The notes below the pieces were generated by a model. That model was not told the origin of the DNA. It saw nothing but the letters and a program-made list of their open reading frames with translations, and made no database searches. A stretch of 64,000 nt of DNA from Methanobacteriota archaeon (GTDB lineage: Archaea > Thermoplasmatota > E2 > DHVEG-1), in assembly GCA_017885605.1 (NCBI GenBank), contig JAFNFT010000071.1, positions 85,519-149,518 on the forward strand, in the 5' to 3' direction. How positions within the stretch are numbered: the first letter of the stretch is position 1; each line of letters begins with the position of its first letter. The position numbers and the translations under genes are program-made. Shown here piece after piece: positions 1,354-19,020 of the stretch.

Positions 1354-3321
1354 TTGGCGGAGAATTTATCACTAAGATGTTTTGGATGGGGATATTTAAT
1401 GCAGAATGTTACTGACCTCGAGCAGCAGACAGAACGAACCGTTCAGGATGCTCGTGAATACGCTGGAAGCATTGTAGAGACGCTCCGAGAGCCTTTGATA
1501 GTGCTTGATGCTGACTTAAAAGTAATCTCAGCTAATCGTTCCTTTTACCAGACCTTTAAAACGAAACCCGAGGAGACTGAGGGGAAATTGGTCTACGACA
1601 TAGGTAATCAGCAATGGAATATTCCAAAGCTCCGAGAGCTTTTGGAGGAGATTTTACCCAAGAATACTTCTTTCGACAACTTTGAGGTTGAGCATGATTT
1701 TCCTCATCTTGGTAAACGAATAATGCTCTTGAATGCTCGATTGGTACCCCAGCCGCCAGCAAAACCCCGAATAATGCTTCTTGCTATTGAGGATATCACA
1801 GAACGCAAGCAGGTTGAACAAATAGCCAACGATGCTCGTGAATACGCTGAAAGCATTGTAGAGACGCTCCGAGAGCCTTTGATAGTGCTTGATGCTGACT
1901 TAAAAGTAATCTCAGCTAATCGTACTTTTTACCAGACCTTTAAAACGAAACCCGAGGAGACTGAGGGGAAATTGGTCTACGATATAGGTAACCAGCAATG
2001 GAATATTCCAAAGCTCCGAGAGCTTTTGGAGGAGATTTTACCCAAGAATACTTCTTTCGACAACTTTGAGGTTGAGCATGATTTTCCTCATCTTGGTAAA
2101 CGAATAATGCTCTTGAATGCTCGATTGTTACCCCAGCCGCCAGCAAAACCCCGAATAATGCTTCTTGCTATTGAGGATATCACAGAGCGTAAATGGGCGG
2201 AGGCGCTGAGGACTTCGGAGATCCGGTATCGTCGGCTCTTTGAGTCGGCCAAAGACGGAATTATAATCCTCGATGCTGAGACCGGGATGATTGTAGACGC
2301 GAATCCGTTCTTAATTGAGATGTTGGGTTACTCAAAAGAACAGTTCCTGGGAAAGTCAATCTGGGAAATGGGGCTTCTCAAGGGTATCGTCACCAACAAA
2401 GACAAATTCATGGAATTGCAACGACAGGAATATGTCCGCTACGAGGATTTGCCGCTGAAAACCGCCGATGGGCGCCGTATCGAGGTGGAGTTCGTCAGTA
2501 ACGTCTATGTAGTGGACCACCAGAAGGTAATCCAGTGCAACATCCGGGACATCACCGAACGTAAGCAGATGGAACATAAACTTAATGAAGCGTATCAAAA
2601 AATCAAAACACATACCAAGGAACTTGAGATGATCAACGAAAATCTGGACAGTTTTGCATATTCTGTCTCTCATGATCTTCGCACACCACTTCGGGCTATA
2701 AGTGGCTTCGCCCAAGTGTTAAAAGATACACACGGCGATAAAATCGACGAGGAGATGCGACATTATCTAAACAGAATTAGTGAAGGCGCTCAAAAAATGG
2801 GCCAATTAATCGATGATCTCCTCGGTTTCTCAAGGGCTACCCGGAGCGAGATAAAATATAAGACGATAAATGTTGAAAATATCGTTAATGATCTCGTAAA
2901 GGCATATCGTGATGTCGAACCGGATAGGGACATTGAATTTATTGTGAATCCATTAGGGGAAGTTGAAGCAGATAAAGAAATGCTAAAGGTTGTTTTTTCT
3001 AATCTTCTGCAAAATGCAGTTAAATTCACTATCGATCGGAAAAAGGCTCGTATTGAGATTGGAAGCGAGCAGAAAGAGGATCATATTCAATTTTATGTTA
3101 AAGATAACGGTATAGGTTTTGATATGAAATATAAAGATAAATTGTTCGTTGCCTTCCAGCGGATCCAAACAGATCAAAGGTTCACGGGTACTGGAATAGG
3201 TCTTACAACCGTGAAAAGGATAGTAACCAAACATGGCGGAAATATATGGGCCAATGGAGAGGTTGATAAAGGAGCAGAATTCTATTTTACTCTGCCTTCC
3301 AAGACGCATGTAAAAGATTGA
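1354..3321 (+). CDS. Cytoplasmic sensor histidine kinase with two tandem-duplicated PAS-like modules, a third PAS, HisKA and HATPase_c
   Basis: H-box VSHDLRTPLRAISGFAQVL and G-box region GTGIGLTTVKRIV...HGGNIWANGEVDKGAEFYFTLP. Three DITERK PAS linkers. No TM segment. Alternative start ATG at 1399. Confidence 0.9.
   Translation: MAENLSLRCFGWGYLMQNVTDLEQQTERTVQDAREYAGSIVETLREPLIVLDADLKVISANRSFYQTFKTKPEETEGKLVYDIGNQQWNIPKLRELLEEILPKNTSFDNFEVEHDFPHLGKRIMLLNARLVPQPPAKPRIMLLAIEDITERKQVEQIANDAREYAESIVETLREPLIVLDADLKVISANRTFYQTFKTKPEETEGKLVYDIGNQQWNIPKLRELLEEILPKNTSFDNFEVEHDFPHLGKRIMLLNARLLPQPPAKPRIMLLAIEDITERKWAEALRTSEIRYRRLFESAKDGIIILDAETGMIVDANPFLIEMLGYSKEQFLGKSIWEMGLLKGIVTNKDKFMELQRQEYVRYEDLPLKTADGRRIEVEFVSNVYVVDHQKVIQCNIRDITERKQMEHKLNEAYQKIKTHTKELEMINENLDSFAYSVSHDLRTPLRAISGFAQVLKDTHGDKIDEEMRHYLNRISEGAQKMGQLIDDLLGFSRATRSEIKYKTINVENIVNDLVKAYRDVEPDRDIEFIVNPLGEVEADKEMLKVVFSNLLQNAVKFTIDRKKARIEIGSEQKEDHIQFYVKDNGIGFDMKYKDKLFVAFQRIQTDQRFTGTGIGLTTVKRIVTKHGGNIWANGEVDKGAEFYFTLPSKTHVKD
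1447..2190 (+). repeat. Near-perfect tandem duplication, 384-bp unit x ~1.9, in frame, duplicating one 128-aa PAS-like module
   Basis: Copy 1 starts at 1447 (gatgctcgtgaatacgctggaagc) and copy 2 at 1831 (gatgctcgtgaatacgctgaaagc). I count only about six substitutions by eye over ~360 bp. The antisense ORFs 1556-1762 and 1940-2146 are near-identical shadows of it. Confidence 0.9.
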
Positions 3322-3351
3322 AAAATGATGTAAAAAAGGTTGTAATAAAGT

Positions 3352-3795
3352 GTGGTAAAAATGGACAAAGAAATAGAAATATTACTGGTAGAAGATAATG
3401 CTACTGATGAAGAATTAGCAACAATCGCATTAAAAAAACACAATATAAAAAATAAACTAAAAATAGCGAGAGATGGCGTAGAGGCCCTGGAATATCTTTT
3501 TGGCTCTGTTGATAGTGAAACGCTTAAATGTTTTGGTCCATTGGTGATTCTTCTTGATCTCAAGTTACCCCGGATAAATGGACTTGAGGTGTTAAGAAGA
3601 ATAAAGTCGCATCCAGAAGCAAAAAAAATACCTGTTGTAATATTGACATCATCCAGTGAAGAGAAAGATATATTGGAATCTTATCAACTCGGTGCAAACA
3701 GCTATATTCGTAAACCTGTGGATTTTAACCAATTTGAAGAAGCGATAAATCAGATTGGTTTGTATTGGTTGGTGCTGAATAAGCAATCTTCGTAG
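3352..3795 (+). CDS. Single-domain response regulator (CheY-like receiver)
   Basis: Matches the receiver-domain D-D-K pattern: LLVEDNATDEEL ... VILLDLKLPRINGLEV ... ILTSS...IRKPV. Probable true start is ATG at 3361. Directly downstream of the histidine kinase. Confidence 0.85.
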   Translation: MVKMDKEIEILLVEDNATDEELATIALKKHNIKNKLKIARDGVEALEYLFGSVDSETLKCFGPLVILLDLKLPRINGLEVLRRIKSHPEAKKIPVVILTSSSEEKDILESYQLGANSYIRKPVDFNQFEEAINQIGLYWLVLNKQSS

Positions 3796-3965: not shown

Positions 3966-4535
3966 ATGAAAACAGAACAAATAGAGAAGATAAAAAATGC
4001 ATTCAACGATTTACCAGAACACTGGCTATTACTATTCTTAATTAACGCCGAAGATTATCTGGAGAAAAATATAGCAATCCTAAACGAAGTATTAAAACAA
4101 GAAGACGTTGTTGGTGTTTATGTCACCTTAAACCGACCTTATTCAGTGTTAATAAAAATTTTAGAGAAAAACAACATCAATACAGACAAATTATTCTTCA
4201 TAGACTGTATAACAAAAACATTAGGACTGGAAAGAGAAGAAAAGAAATGTTTATTTTTAGAAAATCCACAGAATTTGACAAATATTGCAATAGCAATAGA
4301 TGAAATCATGAGTGCGATACCAGCAAAGAATAAATCGCTGTTTGTTGACCCTATGAGCACATTGTTGATTTATAACAGGGTTGAAACTGTTTCAAAGTTT
4401 CTACATGTTCTCACAGGAAAGATACGGGTTTTGAATTTAAACGGGGTTCTACTTTCTGCAGAGAAAGAACTTGATCCTGAATTCGCAGATCAATTGGAGC
4501 AATTTGTTGACAAAACAGTAGATTTAAGCAAATAA
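3966..4535 (+). CDS. DUF835-like protein (paralog 1 of 4 free-standing copies)
   Basis: C-terminal SLFVDPMSTLLIYNRVETVSKFLHVLTGKIRVLNLNGVLLS...EKELDPEF matches my recollection of the DUF835 consensus (…vlLDglEYLllhNgFe.vlkFlh.l.d.....n..lli.idp.al.e.e...L). FIDCIT is a Walker-B-like strand. No Walker A. Confidence 0.5.
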   Translation: MKTEQIEKIKNAFNDLPEHWLLLFLINAEDYLEKNIAILNEVLKQEDVVGVYVTLNRPYSVLIKILEKNNINTDKLFFIDCITKTLGLEREEKKCLFLENPQNLTNIAIAIDEIMSAIPAKNKSLFVDPMSTLLIYNRVETVSKFLHVLTGKIRVLNLNGVLLSAEKELDPEFADQLEQFVDKTVDLSK

Positions 4536-4586
4536 AATATGAATAAGAGAAAGATGCAAAAAAATTATTGTTGATGGTGTTGTAAG

Positions 4587-5141
4587 GTGCAGGAAGAAAT
4601 TGTAACTATTGATAAAAAAATGATTGAACTTAAAAATTATGAAAGTGTTTTAATAATTGAGAATGTGAAATCCTTACGGGCAACAGTAAATGAAATTTTA
4701 AAAACTCTTCAAGATAAACCTATTATTTACCTTAATTTAACTACTACATATAATTCATTAGTATCAAATTTAAAAAAGGATGGGCTAAAGATAGATAATA
4801 TTCTATTTATTGACTGCATTACACAGTTAGCTGGAGGTACTGTCAGTGATCAAGAGAATGTTTTATTTATTAAAGAGCCAAATGATTTAACCAGTTTAGG
4901 AATCGCGATCTCTCAATTTTTTGAAAACATACTTGGTGAGAAATGGCTTGTTTTATATGGTTTTAGTATTTTTAAAATTTACAATAAAGAAGATATTGTT
5001 TTAAGGTTCATTCAATCTATTTTTGAAAATGCCTCAATGAATAATGCAAAAATTGTTATTTTATCGACGCAAGTAAAGAATGATAGTCTAATTAAAAAAA
5101 TGGCTCATTTTTTTGAAAAAGTTGTTATGGAAATTGAGTAA
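4587..5141 (+). CDS. DUF835-like protein (paralog 2)
   Basis: Same length class and motifs as 3966 (IYLNLTTTYNSL..., ILFIDCITQLAG, LVLYGFSIF..., KIVILS). Preceded by an SD-like gtaaggtg. More divergent than the others. Confidence 0.4.
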   Translation: MQEEIVTIDKKMIELKNYESVLIIENVKSLRATVNEILKTLQDKPIIYLNLTTTYNSLVSNLKKDGLKIDNILFIDCITQLAGGTVSDQENVLFIKEPNDLTSLGIAISQFFENILGEKWLVLYGFSIFKIYNKEDIVLRFIQSIFENASMNNAKIVILSTQVKNDSLIKKMAHFFEKVVMEIE

Positions 5142-6574: not shown

Positions 6575-9500
6575 TTGGTGAAGGAGATGCAAAACAAAAA
6601 AAATCTCAATCAATTTTCCCAACAGCATCAGAGTGTTGTTCAAGAAGTTGAACAAATATTACAGGAAAAAAAATACGTCATACCACCTGAAAAACTACTA
6701 TCGCTTGATAATAATTTCCCATCTGCATTCAATGTTTCTTTTACGGGTATAAAAGAGTTTGATCAACTTCTTGATGGCGGATTTACTAAGGGTTCAATTA
6801 TCTTGCTTGCCGGATCATCAGGAAGCGGCAAAACTATCTTTTCCTTCCAATGGCTTTTTGAAGGAATTAAAAACAATGAAAATGGAATCTATATCACTCT
6901 TACAGAACCGCTTTTCAAAACCTTAGAAAATCTTGAAAAACTAAGTTTTTACAATAAAGAAGCTATAGAAAATGAAAAATTGAGAATCGTTGATCTGCGG
7001 AAGATATATGAAAAGGAAGGTTTTGACCAGCAAAAAATCCTCGATTTTATTGAAAACGAGGTCAAACGAACAAATGCAAAACGACTATGCATTGATTCGA
7101 TTACCGCTATCGCGTATCAGCTTGATGATAGGGCCAAGATTAGAGCTTTTATATTTGCTCTAGGTACGACACTTGCAACACTCGGTTGCACAACTGTTTT
7201 AACCAGTGAAGTTTCTGAAATGAATAAATACTCTAAGTACGAAGTCGAGGAATTTATATCTGATGCAATTTTACGATTTGATCAAATTAAAGAAAAAGAC
7301 GAACCACAAAGAATAATACAGATAATCAAAGTGAGAGGGAGAAACCATAGGTCAGATGACATTTATTTCAAAATTACAAAGGATGGCATCACCGTTTTTC
7401 CTAAACTCAGGATTCCGCTTGAACATTTTTCTACGACAGAACGGATCTCGATGGGCATTTCTACGCTGGATGACATGTTAGGCGGAGGTATTTTTGTTGG
7501 TTCTTCTACACTCATAACTGGTTCGCCTGGAACCGGAAAATCTACGTTGGGTTTAAGTTTCCTTGCTGAGGGATTGAAAAATGGGGAGATGTGCCTGTAT
7601 GTTGGATTCGAAGAAAGTAAGAAACAAGTATTAAGAAACGCCAAAAATTTTGGATGGGATTTCGAGAAGTCCGAAAGAAATGGTCTTCTTGTCATGCGAT
7701 GTATTTATCCGAACGAAAAGCATCTTGAAGAACATCTAGCAGATATAAGAAAAATAGTGGAAGAAAAAAAAATTAAAAGATGTGTTGTTGACCCTCTCTC
7801 TGCCATTTCGAGTGCGTTCTCACCGGATGCATTTATAAGTTTTTCAAAACGACTTAATGGATATTTGAAAACTCGTGAGGTGACTCCTTTATTTACATCA
7901 ACCACAAACTCGCTCATAGGCAATACAAAAGATGTAGATTCGCATATTTCTACGATATCAGATAATATTATCTTGTTGCGTTATGTTGAAATGCAAGGTG
8001 ATGTACAGTTTGTAATAAACATTATCAAAATGAGAGGGAGTGAGCATAGCAAAAATCTAAGAATGTACAACATAACAGATAAGGGCTTAGTCGTCGGTAA
8101 AAGTCTCGAAGGTTATGAAGGTGTTACAACTGGTGTCAGTAAAAAAATTGCTGAACTCGAGAAAGAAGGTTTGGAACTTAAGGAAGTTATCAAGCAGAAA
8201 GAAATGGCGGAAAAGGTTCTGCGAGAGAGCGAGGAGAAATTTAGATTATTGTTTAATGACTCTCCTTTAGGTATTGCACTGGTAGATCCAGAAGGAATCA
8301 TTAAAGAAGTAAACAGCAGCTTACTTCAGCTGTTATCAATACGAAAAGAAGAATTTATCGGTAAAAACTTTGTTCAATTAATCTCAGTTTATGGTTTAGA
8401 TGTCCAAGAGCAAACCTCAGATTTCAAAAACAGAATTGCCGGAAAACCATCAAAAAGTGAAATAACATTTTTATCTAAAGACAACAAGAAAGCGACGATG
8501 ACGGTACAGAGTTCGATTATTAAAAGTAACGATGTAATAATTGGTGTTCTCTTCATTTTAGAAGACATCACCGAGCGTAAGCGGGTGGAGGGTATGCTAA
8601 GTGAGACGAATCAATACCTCGAAAACCTATTCAACTATGCAAATGCTCCTATCATCGTCTGGGATGCACAATTCGCAATCACCCGTTTCAATCATGCCTT
8701 CGAATCGTTGACCGGCCGGAGCGTGAAAGATGTTATCGGAAAAACTCTTGAAATTCTCTTTCCCCCAGACCTGGTGGAAAGTTCAATGGAACTAATTCGA
8801 AAAACGCGGGAAGGGAAACAATGGGAGGTGGTCGAGATTGATGTTCTGCATCTCGATGGATCAAGGAGGACCGTCCTCTGGAACTCAGCCAACCTTTTCG
8901 CCCCAGACAGTAAGACTCTCATCGCCACAATTGCGCAAGGTCAAGATATCACCAAACGCAAGCGAGCACTGGACGAATTGAAGGTAGCTAATGAAAAACT
9001 TAATCAAATAAAATCAGATTTTTTCGAAGTGACAACTCGCGAAATAAGATCGCCGTTAACTACAATAAAAGGATATATGGAAATGTTGTCAAATCGAACC
9101 TTTGGTGAAATAAATGATGAGCAAAAAAAATATCTTGATATAATGTTACGGAATACAAATCAGCTTGACAACCTTGTATCAGATCTTGTGGGCATTTCAA
9201 GCATTGAATCAGGGGATATGACTTTTACTTTGAAAAAAACGAGTATTAGTAAGATGGTGAATGAAGCAGTTGAAAAAATACAGTCATCTGCAGATGTAAA
9301 AAACATTGCAGTCAATGTAGAAATAGAGGATCAAATACCTGATTTAATCGTTGACCAAGATCGGATAAAACAAGTCCTTATAGATATACTCGGGTACACA
9401 ATAAAATTCTCACCAGATAAAACTACGGTTAATATGCGCGCAAAAAAACAAGAAACCGATGTTTTATTCGAGATTCAAGACCAAGGATTGAATATACCAA

Positions 9501-9769
9501 AGGATAAACAGAAAAAGATTTTTAAGGCGTTTTACCGAGCTGAAGAAGGTAAAAGTAAAGAATACTTAGGAGGCGGTATTAGACTTGCACTATCACGAGG
9601 TATTATCACCATTCATGGCGGCAAGATGTGGGTAGAAAGCGAGGATGAAAAGGGAAGTACATTTAGATTTACACTGCCAATAAAACCAGTTGATAATATT
9701 CAAACAAGATATAAAGAATCTGACATATTCGAATCAAAAAAAGATGATGAAAACATTGAAATTAATTAA
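6575..9769 (+). CDS. Fusion protein: two KaiC/RecA-like ATPase domains + coiled coil + 2 PAS + HisKA + HATPase_c (KaiC-histidine kinase)
   Basis: Walker A LLAGSSGSGKTIF (domain 1) and LITGSPGTGKSTLG (domain 2), with KaiC-like FDQLLDGGFTKGS and LDDMLGGGIFVGS leaders. EDITERK PAS linkers. H-box TTREIRSPLTTIKGYMEML. G2 region GGGIRLALSRGIITIHGGKMWVESEDEKGSTFRFTLP. Listed start is GTG; ATG at 6587 is more likely. Confidence 0.85.
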   Translation: MVKEMQNKKNLNQFSQQHQSVVQEVEQILQEKKYVIPPEKLLSLDNNFPSAFNVSFTGIKEFDQLLDGGFTKGSIILLAGSSGSGKTIFSFQWLFEGIKNNENGIYITLTEPLFKTLENLEKLSFYNKEAIENEKLRIVDLRKIYEKEGFDQQKILDFIENEVKRTNAKRLCIDSITAIAYQLDDRAKIRAFIFALGTTLATLGCTTVLTSEVSEMNKYSKYEVEEFISDAILRFDQIKEKDEPQRIIQIIKVRGRNHRSDDIYFKITKDGITVFPKLRIPLEHFSTTERISMGISTLDDMLGGGIFVGSSTLITGSPGTGKSTLGLSFLAEGLKNGEMCLYVGFEESKKQVLRNAKNFGWDFEKSERNGLLVMRCIYPNEKHLEEHLADIRKIVEEKKIKRCVVDPLSAISSAFSPDAFISFSKRLNGYLKTREVTPLFTSTTNSLIGNTKDVDSHISTISDNIILLRYVEMQGDVQFVINIIKMRGSEHSKNLRMYNITDKGLVVGKSLEGYEGVTTGVSKKIAELEKEGLELKEVIKQKEMAEKVLRESEEKFRLLFNDSPLGIALVDPEGIIKEVNSSLLQLLSIRKEEFIGKNFVQLISVYGLDVQEQTSDFKNRIAGKPSKSEITFLSKDNKKATMTVQSSIIKSNDVIIGVLFILEDITERKRVEGMLSETNQYLENLFNYANAPIIVWDAQFAITRFNHAFESLTGRSVKDVIGKTLEILFPPDLVESSMELIRKTREGKQWEVVEIDVLHLDGSRRTVLWNSANLFAPDSKTLIATIAQGQDITKRKRALDELKVANEKLNQIKSDFFEVTTREIRSPLTTIKGYMEMLSNRTFGEINDEQKKYLDIMLRNTNQLDNLVSDLVGISSIESGDMTFTLKKTSISKMVNEAVEKIQSSADVKNIAVNVEIEDQIPDLIVDQDRIKQVLIDILGYTIKFSPDKTTVNMRAKKQETDVLFEIQDQGLNIPKDKQKKIFKAFYRAEEGKSKEYLGGGIRLALSRGIITIHGGKMWVESEDEKGSTFRFTLPIKPVDNIQTRYKESDIFESKKDDENIEIN

Positions 9770-9792: not shown

Positions 9793-10380
9793 ATGTTAAA
9801 AGATGAAACAAAAAAATCTATTGAACAAGCAATACAAATGGACAAACATGGCGTCATAATTATGATAGAACTTCCAATAAATGCTTATTTTGAAATGAAT
9901 TCTTCCACCATTAAAATATTGACAAACCATGGTTTTCAAGGGATATACATTAGCTTTCAGAGACCGTTTAATAACATATCTTCCTTTTTTGAATCTGAGG
10001 GAATAGACACTAATACACTATTATTTATAGATGCTGCAACAGCCCTTTCCGGTGAAAAACAACATGAAGATGCTCGTTGTATACATGTCTCCCAAGAACT
10101 CGATATTGATGAACTGGTAAAAGCCATCTATCTTTCTCTGCCAAAGCTAAAAAGCCAAAAAAAGTTTATTTTTATCGATTCATTAACTACAATATCTCTT
10201 TACAAACCATTATCTCAAATAATGAGATTTTCAGAATTCCTGATGAGGACAGTACGTAAAGAAAACGAGGAAAATGTTATACTCATTTTTAACGTGGCAA
10301 AAGATCTCGCCCAAAAAAAATTTATCAGAGAGGTAGCCTTCCATGTGGACCAAGTAATAAGTGTGGATAATAATGAATGA
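9793..10380 (+). CDS. DUF835-like protein (paralog 3)
   Basis: GIYISFQRPFNNI...LLFIDAATALSG...KFIFIDSLTTISLYKPLSQIMRFSEFLMRTV...VILIFNV: same pattern as 3966. Starts 24 nt after the KaiC-histidine kinase stop. Confidence 0.45.
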   Translation: MLKDETKKSIEQAIQMDKHGVIIMIELPINAYFEMNSSTIKILTNHGFQGIYISFQRPFNNISSFFESEGIDTNTLLFIDAATALSGEKQHEDARCIHVSQELDIDELVKAIYLSLPKLKSQKKFIFIDSLTTISLYKPLSQIMRFSEFLMRTVRKENEENVILIFNVAKDLAQKKFIREVAFHVDQVISVDNNE

Positions 10381-10930
10381 TCTAGAAAAAATTTCTCAAG
10401 AATTAAACAATCTGCCAAAAGGCTGGATTGTAATGCTGGAAACTTCTCCAGAAAAAATGTTAGAGGTTTCTTTGTCAACGATAAAATTTTTATCTGATGA
10501 AAAAAACTACATTGGAATTATCGTATCAGCAAGCAGACCTCAAAAAAATTTGATACAACTCTACCAACAAAAAAAAATCGATATTAAAAAAATTCTCATT
10601 CTCGACTGTATCTCAAAAAGCCAGAGTTTGGACCTGGAGGAAGCGAGCAATGTTATATATCTTGAATCAGTATCTTCTCTTACAAATATTTCACTTGCAA
10701 TAACAGCGAGTATTCAACGAATACCGGGAGATAAATTTGTTTTTATTGACTCTATCAACAGCATGCTTATTCATAACAAACCTGAAGTTTTTGCTCAATT
10801 CATTCATGGGATTTTAACTAAGCTGAGAATTGGCGGGATAAACGGTTTACTTATTTCTCTAGAACATGAAACGAACAAAGAGATACATGCAGAAATTGCA
10901 CAACTGTGCGATCGGATTGTGAAAATATAA
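10361..10930 (+). CDS. DUF835-like protein (paralog 4)
   Basis: KFVFIDSINSMLIHNKPEVFAQFIHGILTKLRIGGINGLLISLEHETNKEIHAEIAQL is the strongest DUF835-type match of the four. Overlaps the upstream paralog by 20 nt and the downstream kaiC by 25 nt. Confidence 0.5.
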   Translation: MWIIMNDLEKISQELNNLPKGWIVMLETSPEKMLEVSLSTIKFLSDEKNYIGIIVSASRPQKNLIQLYQQKKIDIKKILILDCISKSQSLDLEEASNVIYLESVSSLTNISLAITASIQRIPGDKFVFIDSINSMLIHNKPEVFAQFIHGILTKLRIGGINGLLISLEHETNKEIHAEIAQLCDRIVKI

Positions 10931-11853
10931 TGGATGAAAAAAAGAGTAAACAAAGTAATATCTTTGACATGGCTAAAATCAAAGCAGAGATTGAGAATAA
11001 GCTAAAGGGTACTGATGACAAAGGTTATTCCACGGGAGGAACTTTAGAACAAAAAACGCAACAGTTGCATGAAACAAAAAATGAAGCTAAAACGGGAAAA
11101 AAATTTGTTTTAACAGGCGTTTCCGGATTTGATGAACTATTTGAAAATGGCATACCAAAAGGTTCCAATATTCTCGTTGCTGGAGGTGCAGGTTCAGGAA
11201 AAACAATTTTTTGTCTACAAACACTGTGGTACCATATCTTATGTGGGGAAAAATGTTTTTACATGAGTTTTGAAGAATCTGAAAAAAGATTAATGGAACA
11301 TATGGAGGATTTTGGTTGGAATCCAGAAAAACTTCTCGCATCAGGTAACTTTAAAATCAAGAGGTATCTACCGAGCGATATTCATTATGTATCTGAAAAA
11401 GGTAACGATAATGCAATGTTTGCTAAAGAAGAGGACAGTCAACTTTTACAGTTAGAGCCAGTAACTTTGGAAGAAGGATTTAATCCTGATTTTGTTGTCA
11501 TTGATTCACTTACGGCAATTGCCTCGGCATTTATGGGAAAAGAAGGTTCGTACAGGTTTTATGCTGAGCGACTCTTCAGGTTTTTTGAAAATATGGGGAG
11601 TACAAATTATTTTATAACAGAGACCGGACAGATGCCAGAAACTTTTTCACAGACCGGTGTTGAGGAGTTCTTAGCTGATGGGGTGATTGTTTTGTATAAT
11701 ATTAAACGAGAAAATATGCGGGAACGCGCTATAGAGGTTTTGAAAATGCGTGGTACAAAACATCAAGAGAGAATAGTTGCAATGAAAATTTCCGAAAAAG
11801 GTATGGTTGTGTATCCAAAACAGGAGATTTTTGGTGAGATTCACACTAAATAA
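10906..11853 (+). CDS. Single-domain KaiC-like (RecA superfamily) ATPase
   Basis: Walker A VAGGAGSGKTIFCLQ preceded by the KaiC-like GVSGFDELFENGIPKGSNIL. Walker B DFVVIDSLTAIAS. Confidence 0.8.
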   Translation: MRSDCENIMDEKKSKQSNIFDMAKIKAEIENKLKGTDDKGYSTGGTLEQKTQQLHETKNEAKTGKKFVLTGVSGFDELFENGIPKGSNILVAGGAGSGKTIFCLQTLWYHILCGEKCFYMSFEESEKRLMEHMEDFGWNPEKLLASGNFKIKRYLPSDIHYVSEKGNDNAMFAKEEDSQLLQLEPVTLEEGFNPDFVVIDSLTAIASAFMGKEGSYRFYAERLFRFFENMGSTNYFITETGQMPETFSQTGVEEFLADGVIVLYNIKRENMRERAIEVLKMRGTKHQERIVAMKISEKGMVVYPKQEIFGEIHTK

Positions 11854-11946: not shown

Positions 11947-12777
11947 TCAAGAAGCTATCCACGCATCTATTTCTATGATGTTTAGAGCGAGATTAACGGT
12001 GGTGATTCCTAAAAATTCTATAGTTATTTCGCCAGTAGTATCCGTCACTGAAAAATTGGCTCCATAGGTAAGGTTTGCTGATTGTAATGTACTTTTAAAC
12101 GCTTGATGCCAGGCATTTGGATAATTTGTGGTAATTGTAATGTTTTTTATATTGTTCATCAAAGAAGTTTTATTACTAACGAATTCTGTCCGTATCGGAT
12201 AGGTTCCATATCCGCCTGCGGATGTTCTTCCACCAACTCCTGTGATGTTTACAATATCGAGGGTTAGGTTAACAACATTTACGTTTATTATTGCGGAAAA
12301 AGGTTTTATGGACATTACATTTCCTTCAGATTGATTCAATATTACAGATCCAGCCTCATAAATGTAAGATTGATCAAGATAGTATACATTTTTCGATGAA
12401 TATTTTATGATTCCAAGTGAATACGAAGCGGAGTTTGAGATATTTGTGATTGTCACTGTACAATTATTTGATAAAATCAGAAGAGACCCAAACGCTCTAC
12501 TCGCTGAGAAATAAGGTATTTCTTTATTTCCAAGAGTAATAGATGTTGACATTGGTGTTTTTTGCCCAGTTGCAGCTTGTATGTCTATCGCAGATTTTAA
12601 CTGAGAAAACTGATCTGCTACGTCACCCATATGCTCTGCTTCTATCGACCTCATCCATTTTGGCACATACGTGGTTTGTATCAATGAAATAACAATGACA
12701 ATGAGTCCTACAAGTAATATTGCAGTAATAATGCCTGCCACTGCATTATCCGAACACCATCTCTGGTTCACTCTCAT
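11947..12777 (-). CDS. Pilin-like protein with class III signal peptide / N-terminal hydrophobic helix (putative minor pilin), rich in N-x-S/T sequons
   Basis: N-terminus DNAVAGIITAILLVGLIVIVISLIQ, about ten N-x-S/T sequons. Last gene of the minus-strand pilus operon. Confidence 0.45.
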   Translation of the reverse strand: MRVNQRWCSDNAVAGIITAILLVGLIVIVISLIQTTYVPKWMRSIEAEHMGDVADQFSQLKSAIDIQAATGQKTPMSTSITLGNKEIPYFSASRAFGSLLILSNNCTVTITNISNSASYSLGIIKYSSKNVYYLDQSYIYEAGSVILNQSEGNVMSIKPFSAIINVNVVNLTLDIVNITGVGGRTSAGGYGTYPIRTEFVSNKTSLMNNIKNITITTNYPNAWHQAFKSTLQSANLTYGANFSVTDTTGEITIEFLGITTVNLALNIIEIDAWIAS

Positions 12778-12788
12778 CTCAATTCTCC

Positions 12789-14540
12789 TTACGTATGCCT
12801 ACATCTCGAATCAGCACTCGCAGGTGCGCCCTCGACAGTACCAGCATACCTCCCTCTACTGTAAAATTCATAATACACATTCCCATTCGGAAAATCAAAA
12901 CTCCAACTCCATGGATGCGAAGTATCAGGGTTATTCGAATTATTCCAGATTATCCAATTGCTCTGTATCAAAGAATAATTATTTTCCTGCCCCCAAGTTC
13001 CATGAGATGGTTCAGGGGAGACGTGTTTACAGACACGGATATCATCATAATATGAATAACTTCCATAGTGATTCTGTAATGAAATTTCTCCTGCGTTTGA
13101 ATATGCAGAAGAAGGAGGAGTCTCACTACATGTTTTTGTCTTCCCATCACATGTTATTGTAAACGATGAGCCACTTACGGTAATATTGAATGGTTTCCAT
13201 GATCCCGTTCCAACGGCAGTTCCTGTTACTGAACAACCGGTAAAAAACGCCCAAGCGGTATAGGGTGGTCTGAGGTAAGAAAGACCTTCATTGGTTCTTG
13301 CGTCCATTCTAGATTTATACCCGGTGTTACCCGTATAATTTCCTCGCCATCCGACTTCTGCAATGGCATTTGATGAAAGGTATACTTTTCCTTCAATTGT
13401 TCCATTGATGAATCCAGTATAGGTTGCATTTGAACCCAGAACGGTGTGGCCATAAGACCCGCTCGTTGAACCTCCACCACAGACGAGATATCCATTTTCA
13501 ATTCTTGGGTAAACTCCTGAGAGTTTGTGCCTTGTCCATTTACTGAGATCCCCACTAAAATCATCAAAGAAAATGAACGTATTCGTTCCATTACTTTTGT
13601 TCGTAGCAGCACTATTTCCATAATATAACCAGATTGAGCTGCCTGTTGTATTCAAATTGTCAGGTATTTTGACCCAAAAGGTAGCATTACTGCCTGTGTT
13701 TTTCTGTTCTATCCAGTAGTCCAGTTTGGTTGTATTATCAGTATAGCTGATAAATCGTATATCGCCAAAGTCGTTTCGTGCTTTGTTATTGATATAGACA
13801 GTGTCCTCACTATCAGTCCCTGTCCCATTTTTCACAATAATTTTTACTTGGTAATTTGATCCAGCGCCACTTGCGCTTCCTATGTCATGCTTCTTACGGT
13901 ACCCCCAAGAGTTGTTCCACCAATTTTCATTCTCGCCCCATGAAGCATTATCTGCAGAATAACGATACCAGAGCGTTACAATCTCCAATCCTGAATCGCC
14001 AGTAGCATTGACAGTAAGTGGAGAAGATGTTTGATGGTAGGGACTAATTGTATCAACAGAAGTAACAAGTGACGGAATAGTCGTTGTTTCTCCCTCCTGT
14101 AGAACTCCCATCATCATTATAGAATTGCTATCCCTATCAACTACAGTAGCCTCGATTTGCAAACCTGTCATATTCCCAGATAAATTGTAGTGGTAGACGA
14201 GCTGCTCACTAATATCCCATCGATAATTTCCATTAGAATCAATCAATAAATCGTGAACAGTCTTACTAATCCTTGTTCCCCCTACGATAAATGAGACTGT
14301 TGCGTTTTGATCCAGTGAATCTCCACCACGATGTTCTAGTACTATATTACTCCCTTCAATTGATCCGACAATATCTACAGAAGGTACCGACGGAGAAAAT
14401 GGATACGACATAACAATGAAATACAATATGGAGAAAAGTGCTACACCTATCCCTACCATTAAAATAGCGCCAATGACTTCAGAGACAGCACCATCCAGTT
14501 TTTTCCATTTCATTTTCATATCCATTATACCACTCTTCAA
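12789..14540 (-). CDS. Large pilin-like surface protein A: archaeal type IV pilin N-terminal domain + LamG/DUF2341-like beta-sandwich region
   Basis: KWKKLDGAVSEVIGAILMVGIGVALFSILYFIV matches the archaeal pilin N-terminal (class III signal) pattern. IWLYYGNSAATNKSNGTNTFIFFDDFSGDLSKW is typical of DUF2341/LamG. Many N-glycosylation sequons. Paralog of 15033-17282. Confidence 0.65.
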   Translation of the reverse strand: MKSGIMDMKMKWKKLDGAVSEVIGAILMVGIGVALFSILYFIVMSYPFSPSVPSVDIVGSIEGSNIVLEHRGGDSLDQNATVSFIVGGTRISKTVHDLLIDSNGNYRWDISEQLVYHYNLSGNMTGLQIEATVVDRDSNSIMMMGVLQEGETTTIPSLVTSVDTISPYHQTSSPLTVNATGDSGLEIVTLWYRYSADNASWGENENWWNNSWGYRKKHDIGSASGAGSNYQVKIIVKNGTGTDSEDTVYINNKARNDFGDIRFISYTDNTTKLDYWIEQKNTGSNATFWVKIPDNLNTTGSSIWLYYGNSAATNKSNGTNTFIFFDDFSGDLSKWTRHKLSGVYPRIENGYLVCGGGSTSGSYGHTVLGSNATYTGFINGTIEGKVYLSSNAIAEVGWRGNYTGNTGYKSRMDARTNEGLSYLRPPYTAWAFFTGCSVTGTAVGTGSWKPFNITVSGSSFTITCDGKTKTCSETPPSSAYSNAGEISLQNHYGSYSYYDDIRVCKHVSPEPSHGTWGQENNYSLIQSNWIIWNNSNNPDTSHPWSWSFDFPNGNVYYEFYSRGRYAGTVEGAPASADSRCRHT

Positions 14541-15013
14541 AATAAAAATTTGAAAACAAAAAGTGAGATCACACCAAGAACAAAACTGTACCGAAGGCCT
14601 GAAGAAAGTTTACCATCCATCATGAACCCTCCGATCATACCTGCACCAATACCCTGTGTAAAAACAAATGAACTCAATGCGTATTTCAACGCCACGGGAT
14701 CCACTTTATTCATCATGACACCAGCCATTTCAACCGTGCTGCTCTGACTCTTGAAAAATGAGGCGAACAGCGTGTTATTAAGAATCATAATTATTCCGAG
14801 GAACACAAAAAAACTCATGATAATTACAACGGTATAGGTAGCCATTTCCGATTTTCTCTGCTCCTTAATATTATTAATTTGATTGATTTCTTTTGCCGCT
14901 GCTTTAAAAACCTTTGACGTCATCCCCCCCATTCTCAATCCTGTATTTATCGAAACAACTATTCTTTTGACAATAGGAGATCTCATCCGTTCAGCAAAAT
15001 TCTCAAACTTCAT
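13955..15013 (-). repeat. Segmental duplication copy A (pilin 5-prime ~590 bp + tadC 3-prime ~480 bp); copy B at ~16695-17745
   Basis: The pilin N-terminal ~95 codons are essentially identical between 14225-14520 and 16950-17245. The tadC 3-prime 477 bp (14537-15013) is ~90% identical to 17260-17740 by eye. Confidence 0.6.
14537..15013 (-). pseudogene. 5-prime-truncated duplicate of the tadC/flaJ-like gene (C-terminal 158 codons only); may be expressed as a small 3-4 TM protein
   Basis: MKFENFAERMRSPIVKRIVVSINTGLRMGG... aligns residue-for-residue with the last 158 aa of the 586-aa protein at 17260-19020 (KVFENFAERMRSAIIKRIVVSINTGLRMGG...). Confidence 0.5.
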
Positions 15014-15032
15014 TTTTTTTTATCTCGCCTCT

Positions 15033-17282: not shown

Positions 17283-19020
17283 AAAGTGAAATCACACCAA
17301 GAACAAAACTGTACCGAAGCCCTGAAGAAAGTTTACCATCCATCATGAACCCCCCAATCATACCGGCACCAATACCTTGAGTAAAAACAAATGAACACAA
17401 CGCGTATTTCAATGCCACCGGATCGACCTTATTCATCATGGCACCAGCCATTTTCACGGTACTACTCTGACTCTTGAAAAATGAGGCGAACAGTGTATTA
17501 TTAAGTATCATAATTATTCCGAGGAACACAAAAAAACTCATGATAATTACAGTGGTATACGTAGACATCTCCGATTTTCTCTGCTCTTCAATATTATTAA
17601 TTTGATTGATTTCTTTTGCTGCTGCGATAAAAACCTTTGATGTCATCCCCCCCATCCTCAATCCGGTATTTATCGAGACAACTATTCTTTTGATGATGGC
17701 GGATCTCATTCGTTCAGCGAAATTCTCAAACACCTTTGTTACGGGAATACTCCAAGATAGCTCAGATTTCATTTTTTGTATTTCAGGGGTCAATCTTCCA
17801 TAACGGCCTTTTGATGAAATTTTTATTGCATCAAAAATGGTCATCCCTGAGGAGATACAGTTTCCCATTTCGACCACAAAATCTGGTAATCTTCGCTCAA
17901 TCTCACGCTGTTTTTGCGCTTGCTTATGACAATAAAAGGTAATAGGCCCTATGAAAACCAGGACGGACAGGAAAAAAACATCAAAAAAGAAGTAGGTGGT
18001 GAAATTCATATATTTGTAATAACTTAATACATAAATAATGCAGTAAAAAGAAAGCAATAAACCTGTTGAAAGAAGCAGAATTAAAATAAATGGTCTGTTT
18101 TTTTTATAAAAATCTTTCACTGAAGGTCTCTTCTTCGAATGAGGGTTTCTTATCTCTTCTATACTTGTTGATCGTATGAGAGCGTAATATCCACCATATG
18201 CTATGGGTAGAACAACGAACGAAAAAATAAACAAAATCTCTATAGTGAAACTTGAGGAACCACCAAAAAAACCCATCACAGAGATAATGATCACAAGAAA
18301 AATCGGAAACGCGACAAGCGTGGTGACAAATGTTTCTGCAAGAACCCCAAGAGTATCCAAGTTTTTCTTCCTTGCTAAAAATTCATCGGCCATGTACTGA
18401 TCTACAATGGTTGAAAGGTAAATATGAAGGTCACTACCTGATTGAATAGTACCGATTATCCCTTGGAGAAACGATTTGAATTTTTTTGAAGGAGTGTTTT
18501 CAAGGGCGTGTTTTAGCGCAGTAATCGTATCAATCCCCATGACATCGAGTTCTATGATGATTTTCTTTGCTTCTTGTTGTACTTCACCATAGATATCGAT
18601 TGTTGCAAAAGATCGAAAGATATCTGCGGGTGAAACACCCGCAATTGCCATGGTGCTGATAAAATTCACCGCATAAGGTAAGAATCTATCGATATTCGCG
18701 GCTCTTTTTTTGATATGAGAGTGCGGGATGTATTGACACATCACCCAGATGCTAAACGGCACAAGTGCAGGCAAAAGAATCGCAAGTAAGAGAGTATTTA
18801 ATGAAGGGAAAAAGAGATACAGGAGTAAAGATGGGATGATGGTGAGTATAAACCCCAGGAGCATTGTCATCAAAAACATCGAGAAGTACTCCTGGTATAA
18901 CATATTGATATCGGCTTGTTTTAATAGTATGTTTTTCTCTTGGAGCCGCTGTTTTGTTTTTATTGAAAAAAATCTATCAAATTTCCAGAGGCAGAAGTTC
19001 GAATATTTTGAGGATTTCAT
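17260..19020 (-). CDS. Type IV pilus / archaellum assembly membrane platform protein (FlaJ/TadC/PilC-like)
   Basis: 586-aa polytopic membrane protein with the typical FlaJ/TadC topology, immediately downstream of the secretion ATPase and overlapping it by 4 nt (ATGA). Confidence 0.7.
   Translation of the reverse strand: MKSSKYSNFCLWKFDRFFSIKTKQRLQEKNILLKQADINMLYQEYFSMFLMTMLLGFILTIIPSLLLYLFFPSLNTLLLAILLPALVPFSIWVMCQYIPHSHIKKRAANIDRFLPYAVNFISTMAIAGVSPADIFRSFATIDIYGEVQQEAKKIIIELDVMGIDTITALKHALENTPSKKFKSFLQGIIGTIQSGSDLHIYLSTIVDQYMADEFLARKKNLDTLGVLAETFVTTLVAFPIFLVIIISVMGFFGGSSSFTIEILFIFSFVVLPIAYGGYYALIRSTSIEEIRNPHSKKRPSVKDFYKKNRPFILILLLSTGLLLSFYCIIYVLSYYKYMNFTTYFFFDVFFLSVLVFIGPITFYCHKQAQKQREIERRLPDFVVEMGNCISSGMTIFDAIKISSKGRYGRLTPEIQKMKSELSWSIPVTKVFENFAERMRSAIIKRIVVSINTGLRMGGMTSKVFIAAAKEINQINNIEEQRKSEMSTYTTVIIMSFFVFLGIIMILNNTLFASFFKSQSSTVKMAGAMMNKVDPVALKYALCSFVFTQGIGAGMIGGFMMDGKLSSGLRYSFVLGVISLFVFKFVF

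What the first reader, a model, noticed from the sequence alone, without database searches (positions are those of the whole stretch)
6575..9769. Double-KaiC ATPase fused in one polypeptide to PAS sensors and a histidine kinase core
Seen: two complete KaiC/RecA P-loop domains (GSSGSGKT and GSPGTGKST with KaiC-type leaders), a coiled coil, two PAS domains, HisKA and HATPase_c in one 1064-aa ORF. Inference: in cyanobacteria KaiC autophosphorylation state is read out by a separate histidine kinase (SasA). Here the ATPase/autokinase and the histidine kinase would be covalently coupled, i.e. a self-contained KaiC-to-two-component relay, presumably signalling to the orphan receivers nearby (3352, 32116).
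Basis: partly seen in the sequence, partly recalled or inferred. Interest (0 to 1): 0.7.

Follow-up and report, generated by a model that had tools for sequence, protein, structure and literature searches.

The report
KaiC ATPase fused to dead histidine kinase
An uncultured Thermoplasmata archaeon encodes a clock-type KaiC ATPase fused to PAS sensors and a histidine-kinase-like module that has lost its phosphorylatable histidine, so it is a conserved signalling switch (probably tied to a pilus machine) rather than the self-contained KaiC-to-two-component phosphorelay first proposed.

Summary
One uninterrupted ORF (6575-9769, 1064 aa; the likely true start is ATG 6587) carries two KaiC domains, a helical linker, two PAS domains, HisKA and HATPase_c. 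At least 17 independent metagenomic homologs share this architecture down to about 41% identity, so it is not a frameshift or assembly artefact.

KaiC CII keeps the Walker A/B motifs, catalytic E346/E347, the Arg finger and the S459/T460 phospho-sites. CI has Thr in place of catalytic E77, a signature of a whole archaeal clade. The "histidine kinase core" is a pseudokinase. The acceptor His is Arg (R822) in 17 of 18 fused proteins and Gln in the other. In this protein the N, G1 and G2 ATP-binding boxes are also broken. Four other HKs in the same window are intact. The dead module is nevertheless under purifying selection (dN/dS 0.11-0.33).

Context: the gene heads a conserved operon with two P-loop-less KaiC-fold proteins and a single-domain ArlH-like KaiC, next to an ArlI/ArlJ-like type IV pilus locus.

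Best reading: a KaiC switch with a sensor and docking appendage of the DivL pseudokinase type, not a phosphorelay. It is a new variant of known kinds and of moderate interest.

The parts
6575..9769 (+). Whole ORF: KaiC(CI)-KaiC(CII)-linker-PAS-PAS-pseudoHisKA-degenerate HATPase_c. The probable true start is ATG 6587.
6743..7405 (+). KaiC CI domain (aa 57-277). Walker A GSSGSGKT at 6812-6835, Walker B D174, Arg finger R254. The catalytic pair reads T110-E111 (6902-6907) instead of E77-E78.
   Evidence: T-E is conserved in 73 of 119 relatives (the archaeal clade).
7439..8104 (+). KaiC CII domain (aa 289-510). Walker A GSPGTGKS at 7520-7543, E346/E347 at 7610-7615, D406, phospho-site equivalents S459/T460 at 7949-7954, V454 in place of T426, Arg finger R487.
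8129..8257 (+). Conserved post-CII segment and helical linker 'TGVSKKIAELEKE...' (aa 519-561). It occupies the A-loop/C-tail position of cyanobacterial KaiC and is nearly invariant among the fusions.
8234..8965 (+). Two PAS domains (aa 554-667 and 682-797). This cassette is exchanged among homologs (24-30% identity in L001/L004, against 69-93% for the flanking modules).
9011..9214 (+). HisKA/DHp-like domain (aa 813-880) without a phospho-acceptor. The H-box reads VTTREIRSPL, and the R822 codon is at 9038-9040.
9353..9685 (+). HATPase_c-like CA domain (aa 927-1037) with a degenerate N box (Y941), G1 box (DQGLN, N973) and G2 box (GGGIRL, R1003). The F box is intact.
9793..10380 (+). iKaiC-B: a 195-aa protein with a KaiC/RecA fold but no Walker A and no catalytic Glu ('GIYISFQRP'). 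It lies 23 nt downstream of the fusion. The family is 50-94% identical across many archaeal phyla.
10361..10930 (+). iKaiC-A: a 189-aa KaiC-like protein without a P-loop (DUF7504-like). It overlaps the previous gene by 20 nt.
10906..11853 (+). Single-domain KaiC (315 aa) with an intact Walker A (GGAGSGKT) and EE pair. It gives weak ArlH/FlaH hits and overlaps the previous gene by 25 nt. In rearranged loci it stays next to the pilus locus.
11947..21029 (-). Convergent type IV pilus/archaellum-like locus: DUF7289, two Pilin_N+DUF2341 proteins, a T2SSF fragment, T2SSF (ArlJ-like, 107 bits) and T2SSE ATPase (FlaI/ArlI-like, 360 bits, below the cut-off of 550).
   Evidence: Linkage is conserved in L001, L002, L044 and L047.
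1354..3795 (+). Intact PAS-PAS-HisKA-HATPase_c kinase (1354-3321, H-box SHDLRTPL) followed after 30 nt by a receiver (3352-3795, acceptor Asp in 'LLDLKLP'). This is a candidate source of the REC~P that the pseudo-HK might read.
   Evidence: The pair is conserved in L001.
3966..5141 (+). A second pair of iKaiC paralogs without a P-loop (3966-4535 DUF7504-like; 4587-5141 DUF7090-like).
   Evidence: Conserved in L001.

Best explanation
SHOWN
- The gene encodes a double-domain KaiC-family P-loop protein.
- Its CII domain has every residue needed for ATP binding and for Ser/Thr autophosphorylation at S459/T460.
- Its CI domain keeps the nucleotide-binding residues and the Arg finger, but has Thr at the position homologous to catalytic E77/E318. 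This is a clade signature.
- Through a strongly conserved helical linker it is fused to an exchangeable PAS sensor cassette and to a DHp-CA module that is a pseudo-histidine kinase. That module has no acceptor His (R822), and in this protein no functional ATP-binding boxes.
- The pseudo-HK is conserved under purifying selection.
- The gene heads a translationally coupled operon with two P-loop-less KaiC-fold proteins and a single-domain, ArlH-like KaiC, next to an ArlI/ArlJ-like type IV pilus locus.
- Non-fused members of the same KaiC clade have, in the same place, membrane sensors that end in HAMP with no output domain.

INFERRED MECHANISM
- The KaiC ring is the switch or timer, working through its nucleotide state and S459/T460 phosphorylation.
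- The C-terminal appendage is a regulatory and docking arm, not a catalytic output.
- PAS senses a ligand or redox signal.
- The dimeric pseudo-HK acts like DivL. It binds a partner, most plausibly a phosphorylated receiver made by the adjacent genuine HK-REC pair, or another HK. It couples that binding through the helical linker to the KaiC ring, or the coupling runs the other way.
- Output probably passes by protein-protein contacts through the iKaiC pair and the ArlH-like KaiC to the pilus ATPase.
- No His-Asp phosphotransfer originates from this protein.
For: Domains and residues.

Pseudokinase status:
- R822 aligns to the acceptor His of EnvZ, HK853 and the neighbouring HK in MAFFT and in HMMER against 2c2a/3dge.
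- None of the 18 KaiC-fused HK modules has His (17 Arg, 1 Gln). Among the most similar non-fused PAS-HKs found by an exhaustive search, 69 of the 70 with a parsable H-box have His; 20 more could not be parsed.
- The other four HKs in this window keep the His, the N-box Asn and the G1 Gly residues.
- H1014 is the only His in residues 800-1064.

Retained function: dN/dS is 0.11-0.29 for DHp and 0.22-0.33 for CA, against 0.09-0.13 for CII.

Conserved operon and pilus linkage, in several gene arrangements.

HAMP-only sensors beside standalone KaiC2 plus the iKaiC pair, in Micrarchaeia and other archaea.

iKaiC fold: AF2 pLDDT 88.8, best PDB matches PH0284, KaiC and FlaH, TM 0.6-0.73.

Precedents from the literature:
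- DivL is a PAS-containing pseudo-HK that senses DivK~P and has neither kinase nor phosphatase activity (PMC4211667).
- Autophosphorylation of the KaiC-like ArlH controls its binding to ArlI (bioRxiv 10.1101/2021.03.19.436134, title and abstract only).
- The KaiC-like CirA represses motility in Haloferax (PMC10983859).
Against: - No biochemical data exist for any member of this family.
- The direction of signal flow (appendage as input or as output) rests only on gene-context analogy.
- A receiver gene lies nearby only in the window and in L001, not in L002 or L044, so a REC~P partner is not universal in the neighbourhood.
- More distant fusions (P0012, P0017, P0018, P0020) keep intact N, G1 and G2 boxes. 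Their CA domain may still bind ATP and do something catalytic, so the ancestral role of the module may differ from pure docking.
- The stoichiometry problem (hexameric KaiC against a dimeric DHp) is unresolved. The full-length AF2 model was of low confidence (pLDDT 58).
- The effect of E77 to Thr on CI ATPase activity is unknown. Even E77Q/E78Q KaiC retains residual activity (PMC9171630).
Confidence: 0.55

Rival explanations
1. One reading: an active KaiC autokinase is covalently coupled to an active histidine kinase. That kinase autophosphorylates on His and passes the phosphate to nearby receivers, making a fused KaiC-SasA-type relay.
For: - All the Pfam domains of an HK are present above threshold.
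- Receivers are encoded at 3352 and 32116.
- kaiC followed by an HK gene is a common bacterial arrangement (PMC3164672).
Against: - The acceptor His is absent (R822), and there is no other His in the DHp.
- The N-box Asn, a G1 Gly and a G2 Gly are replaced.
- The His is missing in all 18 fused proteins.
- There is no SasA-like KaiB-fold domain.
- The 3352 receiver already has its own intact HK directly upstream.
Confidence: 0.04
2. The pseudo-HK is a dedicated, His-independent phosphatase or sink for a phosphorylated receiver. Its activity is gated by the KaiC phosphorylation or nucleotide state and by PAS.
For: - The DHp keeps the residues next to the missing His: E823 at +1 and S826 at +4, in place of the HisKA phosphatase motif E/D-x-x-T/N.
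- An intact HK plus REC pair is encoded upstream here and in L001.
- From general knowledge, His-less mutants of some HisKA kinases retain phosphatase activity.
Against: - The +4 position is not conserved as T/N. It is S in this sub-clade and Q in P0017, P0018 and P0020.
- DivL, the closest characterised pseudo-HK, has no phosphatase activity (PMC4211667).
- No REC gene is linked in L002 or L044.
Confidence: 0.15
3. The DHp-CA remnant is purely architectural. It acts as a dimerisation or higher-order assembly handle, comparable to the C-terminal coiled coil that joins Rhodobacter KaiC hexamers, or as a partner that heterodimerises with genuine HKs. PAS would be the only sensory element, and no receiver would be involved.
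For: - The linker and DHp helices are conserved.
- The ATP-binding boxes decay progressively in this sub-clade while the fold is kept.
- Relatives exist that carry a PAS array but no HK module and sit in the same operon context (L047, L043).
- KaiC with a C-terminal coiled-coil extension is a solved precedent (PDB 8dba is among the hits).
Against: - Purifying selection acts on the whole CA domain, not just the helices (dN/dS 0.22-0.33).
- Arg at the His position is nearly invariant down to about 36% identity. This suggests a specific surface function rather than a mere scaffold.
Confidence: 0.22
4. Artefact or decaying gene: a chimeric assembly or frameshift joining two genes, or a pseudogenised HK tail with no function.
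For: The catalytic residues of the HK module are lost.
Against: - The ORF is uninterrupted.
- The same architecture is found on independent contigs from JGI, ENA, NCBI and Logan at 41-92% identity.
- dN/dS is well below 1 for DHp and CA.
- The operon context is conserved.
Confidence: 0.02

Closest known systems
Cyanobacterial circadian KaiC (S. elongatus, PDB 1u9i/2gbl) and its bacterial KaiBC homologs (e.g. Rhodobacter KaiC, PDB 8dba)
   Same: - Two tandem RecA-like domains, aligned end to end at 37% identity to S. elongatus KaiC and scoring 367 bits to PDB 8zn5.
- The Walker A/B motifs, both Arg fingers, the CII catalytic EE pair and the S431/T432 phospho-site pair are all conserved.
- Like Rhodobacter KaiC, it has a helical C-terminal extension.
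   Different: - CI has T-E instead of E-E.
- T426 is Val.
- No KaiB or KaiA was detected in the window.
- The KaiA-binding tail is replaced by the linker, PAS domains and pseudo-HK.
- It scores below the TIGR02655 circ_KaiC cut-off.
- Its constant partners are two P-loop-less KaiC-fold proteins, not KaiB.
DivL of Caulobacter (PAS-containing pseudo-histidine kinase, PDB 4q20)
   Same: - PAS domains followed by a DHp-CA whose acceptor His is substituted (Tyr in DivL, Arg here).
- Weakened or lost ATP binding.
- The module is conserved rather than decaying.
- DivL is itself among the PDB sequence hits to the HK module (84 bits).
- DivL shows that such a module can act as a sensor of RR~P (PMC4211667).
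   Different: - DivL is a membrane-anchored bacterial protein that regulates CckA. This one is a soluble archaeal protein fused to a KaiC ATPase.
- The substituting residue differs.
- Partner binding has not been tested here.
SasA/CikA-KaiC output, and bacterial kaiC-HK operons
   Same: There is a functional association between a KaiC and a HisKA-type kinase module. kaiC immediately followed by an HK gene is common in bacteria (PMC3164672).
   Different: - In those systems the HK is a separate, catalytically active protein that docks through a KaiB-like or other N-terminal domain.
- Here the module is fused to the C-terminus, has no KaiB-like domain and is catalytically dead.
Archaeal KaiC-like signalling proteins (ArlH/FlaH, CirA, MEDS and 'iKaiC' domains; the 'KaiC hub' proposal of Makarova et al. 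2017, cited in PMC5847659)
   Same: - KaiC-family ATPases occur together with inactivated KaiC homologs next to a type IV filament machine.
- A single-domain KaiC sits adjacent to an ArlI/ArlJ-like ATPase and platform.
- A MEDS-HK fusion in the same window shows that KaiC-like domains do combine with HK cores.
   Different: - The locus is not a canonical archaellum. It has no archaellins or ArlF/G, the pilins are large Pilin_N+DUF2341 proteins, and the ArlH/ArlI/ArlJ models score below their cut-offs.
- The hub protein here is a bona fide double-domain KaiC with phospho-sites, fused to PAS and a pseudo-HK.
- I could not read Makarova 2017, so I cannot say whether this architecture is listed there.

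Membership tests
KaiC family (double-domain, PF06745 x2 / NCBIfam PRK09302) | Two tandem RecA-like KaiC domains scoring above the curated thresholds | tested here: met
   Pfam PF06745 scores 345 bits with 2 stretches. PRK09302 scores 436 against a cut-off of 408.
KaiC family (double-domain, PF06745 x2 / NCBIfam PRK09302) | Walker A Lys, Walker B Asp and an Arg finger in both domains | tested here: met
   K86, D174 and R254 in CI; K322, D406 and R487 in CII.
KaiC family (double-domain, PF06745 x2 / NCBIfam PRK09302) | A catalytic Glu-Glu pair in both domains (E77/E78 and E318/E319) | tested here: not met
   CII has E346/E347. CI has T110/E111. The T-E state is a conserved clade feature, seen in 73 of 119 relatives.
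Circadian-type KaiC (TIGR02655 equivalog; KaiABC/KaiBC oscillator or hourglass) | Autophosphorylation sites S431/T432, plus T426 | tested here: inconclusive
   S459/T460 are present, but T426 is V454. Actual phosphorylation cannot be tested here.
Circadian-type KaiC (TIGR02655 equivalog; KaiABC/KaiBC oscillator or hourglass) | Score above the equivalog cut-off | tested here: not met
   355 bits against a cut-off of 546.
Circadian-type KaiC (TIGR02655 equivalog; KaiABC/KaiBC oscillator or hourglass) | A KaiB partner gene | tested here: not met
   The best tblastn hit of S. elongatus KaiB in the 64-kb window has E=1.1. No KaiB Pfam family appears in any related locus. The rest of the genome was not available.
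HisKA-type sensor histidine kinase | HisKA (DHp) and HATPase_c (CA) domains | tested here: met
   PF00512 scores 52.7 bits and PF02518 scores 76.8 bits. The module scores 128-133 bits to HK853 structures.
HisKA-type sensor histidine kinase | A phospho-acceptor His in the H-box | tested here: not met
   R822 aligns to EnvZ H243 and HK853 H260. There is no other His in the DHp. None of the 18 fused homologs has His.
HisKA-type sensor histidine kinase | ATP-binding N box (Asn), G1 (DxGxG) and G2 (GxGxGL) | tested here: not met
   Y941, 'DQGLN' and 'GGGIRL'. The boxes are intact in distant fusions P0012, P0017, P0018 and P0020 and in the four other HKs of the window.
Pseudo-histidine kinase of the DivL type | A DHp-CA fold retained without the acceptor His, preceded by PAS, and evolutionarily maintained | tested here: met
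   dN/dS is 0.11-0.33.
Pseudo-histidine kinase of the DivL type | Phospho-specific binding of a response regulator; no kinase or phosphatase activity | not testable with these tools
   This needs binding and enzyme assays. Only the DivL precedent is available (PMC4211667).
Archaeal KaiC-hub module (KaiC plus inactivated KaiC homologs) | A KaiC ATPase encoded with P-loop-less KaiC-fold proteins in a conserved neighbourhood | tested here: met
   The iKaiC pair follows KaiC2 in the window and in L001, L002, L044, L046, L047, L048 and L049. In L042 two unannotated genes of matching size (211 and 183 aa) follow KaiC2. In L043 the pair precedes KaiC2. The iKaiC fold was confirmed.
Archaellum motor accessory (ArlH/ArlI/ArlJ) | Scores above the NCBIfam equivalog cut-offs, and the presence of archaellins and ArlF/G | tested here: not met
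   ArlH scores 54.6 against 215, FlaI 360 against 550 and ArlJ 107 against 550. The locus has Pilin_N+DUF2341 proteins instead of archaellins.

The most novel reading that the evidence does not exclude
This could be the founding example of a hybrid archaeal pathway in which a bacterial-type two-component signal (REC~P from the adjacent genuine HK) is read by a KaiC-tethered pseudo-histidine kinase. That signal would be converted, through a KaiC autophosphorylation timer or switch and a conserved heteromeric pair of dead KaiC-fold proteins, into control of a type IV pilus motor. This would be a physical bridge between the two-component world and the archaeal KaiC network. The invariant Arg at the former His position would be a functional phospho-recognition residue.
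Probability: 0.2. Interest if true: 0.8.

Novelty: new variant of a known kind. Interest (0 to 1): 0.55.

Why it matters
How KaiC homologs outside cyanobacteria receive inputs and deliver outputs is largely unknown, and most archaeal KaiC-like proteins are uncharacterised.

This family offers a 'Rosetta-stone' fusion that links a phospho-site-bearing double-domain KaiC physically to PAS sensors and to a two-component-derived module. It also shows that the module was kept only after losing its kinase chemistry.

That points to protein-protein read-out rather than phosphotransfer. It also names concrete, testable partners: the iKaiC pair, an ArlH-like KaiC, an ArlI-like ATPase and an adjacent HK-REC pair.

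The CI E77-to-Thr clade and the widely conserved iKaiC pair (50-94% identity across archaeal phyla) define a sizeable, unstudied archaeal signalling module.

There is a practical lesson too. Domain-level annotation ('histidine kinase') would mislead automated pathway reconstruction here.

Tried and rejected
- **Exact-sequence lookup.** The window protein is not on record in public assemblies, so I used homologs instead.
- **Full-length AF2 model.** With a 16-sequence alignment it reached only pLDDT 58 and pTM 0.30. I used it only for secondary-structure boundaries and ran no fold search on it.
- **KaiB search.** tblastn in the window found nothing. This does not exclude KaiB elsewhere in the genome.
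- **Literature.** Seven full-text searches found no paper describing a KaiC-PAS-HK fusion or its His loss. The key reference, Makarova et al. 2017 mBio, is not held, so prior mention there cannot be excluded.
- **Genome-contig scan.** The patterns came from a single protein, so the scan mostly returned unrelated PAS-HKs. Only L003, L004 and L005 (Thermoplasmata/Thermoplasmatales) were informative.
- **Frameshift or chimera.** Considered and rejected.
- **An alternative acceptor His elsewhere in the DHp.** Considered and rejected.
- **A canonical archaellum locus.** Considered and rejected.
- **Not examined.** PAS cofactor-binding motifs, and window positions 36-64 kb.

Full report
**1. Observation**

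The window contains one uninterrupted ORF at 6575-9769 (+), 1064 aa, with a TTG start. Homologs start at 'MQN...', which corresponds to ATG 6587.

Pfam finds two KaiC domains (aa 57-277 and about 289-510; 345 bits), two PAS domains (about 554-667 and 682-797), HisKA (813-880) and HATPase_c (927-1037). NCBIfam PRK09302 'circadian clock protein KaiC' is passed (436 against 408). The stricter cyanobacterial equivalog TIGR02655 is not (355 against 546).

The KaiC half aligns end to end with solved KaiC structures (367 bits to 8zn5).

**2. The fusion is real**

A search of 5.8 billion proteins returned full-length homologs with the same architecture. P0001, P0003 and P0004 are 83-92% identical over 100% of the query. 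P0018 and P0020 are 41% identical over 96-98%. They come from JGI, ENA, NCBI and Logan assemblies.

Genome-resolved relatives are uncultured Thermoplasmatales or Thermoplasmata MAGs (L003 at 90%, L004 at 65%).

An exhaustive HMMER pass over 1.84 billion cluster representatives added only one further KaiC+HK protein, the 463-aa P0190, to those already found. The fusion is real but rare.

**3. The KaiC half**

I verified my recalled S. elongatus KaiC sequence as identical to PDB 1u9i_A and mapped its functional residues.

| S. elongatus | Window protein |
|---|---|
| K52 | K86 |
| D145 | D174 |
| R226 | R254 |
| K294 | K322 |
| E318/E319 | E346/E347 |
| D378 | D406 |
| S431/T432 | S459/T460 |
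| R459 | R487 |
| T426 | V454 |
| E77/E78 | T110/E111 |

Across 119 relatives the T-E state of CI is found in 73. That is the whole archaeal clade down to about 40% identity, while the more distant bacterial KaiCs keep E-E. It is a conserved clade signature, not decay.

E318, the CII counterpart of E77, is the catalytic residue for both kinase and C2-ATPase activity. Even E77Q/E78Q KaiC keeps residual C1 ATPase activity (PMC9171630). CI here probably binds ATP but has altered or slow hydrolysis. That is an inference.

No KaiB is detectable in the window.

**4. The 'histidine kinase core' is a pseudokinase**

The H-box reads VTT**R**EIRSPL. In a gap-free MAFFT alignment R822 sits on EnvZ H243, on HK853 H260 and on the His of the neighbouring HK at 1354-3321. 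HMMER independently gives the same alignment to HK853 structures 2c2a/3dge. The only His in residues 800-1064 is H1014, in the CA domain.

All 18 KaiC-fused HK modules lack the His: 17 have Arg and one has Gln. Among the most similar non-fused PAS-HKs, 69 of the 70 with a parsable H-box have His, and 20 more could not be parsed.

In the window protein and its close relatives the ATP-binding boxes are also broken:
- N-box Asn is Y941.
- G1 reads 'DQGLN' (N973).
- G2 reads 'GGGIRL' (R1003).

More distant fusions (P0012, P0017, P0018, P0020) retain canonical N, G1 and G2 boxes.

As an internal control, the four other HKs in this window (1354, 23006, 24759, 30457) all keep the His, the N-box Asn and G1.

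The dead module is not decaying. dN/dS is 0.11-0.29 for DHp and 0.22-0.33 for CA, compared with 0.09-0.13 for CII.

The PAS cassette between them is exchanged among homologs. It is 24-30% identical in L001 and L004, while the flanking modules are 69-93% identical in the same loci. That is the behaviour of a modular sensor.

**5. Genomic context**

The fusion gene is followed by:
- after 23 nt, a 195-aa KaiC-like protein without a P-loop;
- overlapping that by 20 nt, a 189-aa paralog;
- overlapping that by 25 nt, a 315-aa single-domain KaiC with intact Walker A and EE, which gives weak ArlH/FlaH hits.

Convergent to this operon lies a type IV filament locus: DUF7289, two Pilin_N+DUF2341 proteins, T2SSF (ArlJ-like) and T2SSE (FlaI/ArlI-like, 360 bits, below cut-off).

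The same arrangement holds in L001 (68% identity) and L002 (41% identity).

In L044/L004 the pilus locus is instead divergent upstream. The single-domain KaiC stays beside it, and the iKaiC pair stays behind the fusion. Linkage that survives rearrangement argues for functional coupling.

Relatives with a PAS array but no HK module sit in the same operon-plus-pilus context (L047).

Standalone KaiC2 proteins of about 600 aa from the same T-E clade are followed by a membrane sensor ending in HAMP with no output domain (MASE3-HAMP or dCache-HAMP), and then by the iKaiC pair. This is seen in the unclassified archaeal loci L042 and L046 and in Micrarchaeia (L048). An Altiarchaeales locus (L049) has KaiC2 followed directly by the pair.

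The first iKaiC is 50-94% identical across Thermoplasmata, Hadesarchaea, Altiarchaeales, Undinarchaeales, Woesearchaeota and Micrarchaeia. It models confidently (pLDDT 88.8) as a KaiC/RecA fold, with best PDB matches PH0284, KaiC and FlaH at TM 0.6-0.73. 'GIYISFQRP' replaces the catalytic 'EE' strand, and there is no Walker A.

Upstream in the window, and in L001, lie an intact PAS-HK, a canonical receiver 30 nt after it, a second iKaiC pair and a Lys/Glu-rich HhH protein.

**6. Mechanism**

What is shown:
- a KaiC with a competent-looking CII autokinase site;
- a variant CI;
- a conserved helical linker (the block 519-553 is nearly invariant among the fusions);
- exchangeable PAS sensors;
- a conserved but catalytically dead DHp-CA;
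- constant iKaiC partners and pilus linkage.

What I infer:
- The KaiC ring is the switch or timer.
- The C-terminal arm is regulatory or docking rather than a phosphotransfer output.
- In non-fused relatives output-less HAMP sensors take the arm's genomic place. I read this as meaning that the C-terminal side of KaiC2 is where sensory input enters.
- The best-characterised analogue of a PAS-pseudo-HK is DivL. It has Tyr for His, has neither kinase nor phosphatase activity, and uses its DHp-CA to sense phosphorylated DivK, reversing the usual signal flow (PMC4211667). DivL (4q20) is also a direct sequence hit of the module.
- A DivL-like role is therefore the leading hypothesis: reading REC~P from the adjacent genuine HK-REC pair, or binding another HK.
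- Output to the pilus machine via the ArlH-like KaiC is suggested by two precedents. ArlH autophosphorylation controls ArlI binding (bioRxiv 10.1101/2021.03.19.436134, seen as title and abstract only). The KaiC-like CirA represses motility in Haloferax (PMC10983859).

The last is contradicted by the sequence.

**7. Comparison and novelty**

KaiC-HK association as separate genes is well known in bacteria (PMC3164672). KaiC-family 'hubs' with inactivated paralogs have been proposed for archaea (Makarova 2017, cited in PMC5847659; the paper itself is not held). KaiC-REC and MEDS fusions are listed there, and pseudo-HKs are known.

In the searchable literature I did not find a covalent fusion of a bona fide double-domain KaiC to PAS plus a systematically His-less HK module, nor the CI T-E clade signature.

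I classify it as a new variant of known kinds. Interest is moderate, at 0.55. It reframes an attractive but wrong 'self-contained relay' into a testable pseudokinase-on-KaiC design, and it exposes a widespread, unstudied KaiC2-iKaiC module. All function remains inferred.

Noticed in passing
24759-29906 (-): A 1715-aa histidine kinase with an unusual layout. PAS-HisKA-HATPase_c sits at the N-terminus (aa 55-403), followed by at least 8 PAS domains C-terminal to the kinase core. The H-box His is intact.
   Followed up: partly
30457-31848 (+): A MEDS-HisKA-HATPase_c protein with an intact His. Here an inactive KaiC/RecA-like sensor domain is fused to a live kinase, which is the mirror image of the finding (a live KaiC on a dead kinase).
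   Followed up: partly
5144-6337 (+): A 397-aa, highly repetitive Lys/Glu-rich protein with a C-terminal helix-hairpin-helix (HHH_5) domain, directly upstream of the fusion gene. L001 has a 302-aa counterpart in the same position. Its function is unknown.
   Followed up: no
3966-4535 and 4587-5141 (+): A second pair of P-loop-less KaiC-like paralogs (DUF7504-like and DUF7090-like), downstream of the intact HK-REC pair. The window therefore carries four iKaiC genes; 3966 and 10361 are the closest pair (31% identity).
   Followed up: partly
14537-15013 (-): A short (158-aa) ORF with a partial T2SSF domain, lying between the two large Pilin_N+DUF2341 genes. It may be a fragment or a small platform-like protein.
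   Followed up: no
L042 11919-13256; L046 7805-9076; L048 5659-6951: Membrane sensors (MASE3-HAMP or dCache-HAMP) that end right after HAMP, with no output domain. They are always wedged between a standalone T-E-type KaiC and the iKaiC pair, which suggests that HAMP signals directly to KaiC.
   Followed up: partly
P0028-P0070 C-termini (e.g. L042 10001-11929): Standalone KaiC proteins of about 600 aa from the same clade carry a different conserved C-terminal domain of about 80 aa ('FIGPMAxSVFSExKxKGLTKENIFSYIDEL'). It sits after the shared 'YEG..TGV..K' segment, where the fusion has its PAS linker.
   Followed up: no
window 8258-8965 vs L001/L004: The PAS cassette between the conserved KaiC and pseudo-HK modules has been swapped. 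It is 24-30% identical in L001 and L004 but 94% in L003, and the number of PAS/GAF domains varies (proteins range from 818 to 1512 aa).
   Followed up: partly
165-830 (+): A DUF4143/HEPN-like protein at the window edge. It is unrelated to the signalling cluster.
   Followed up: no
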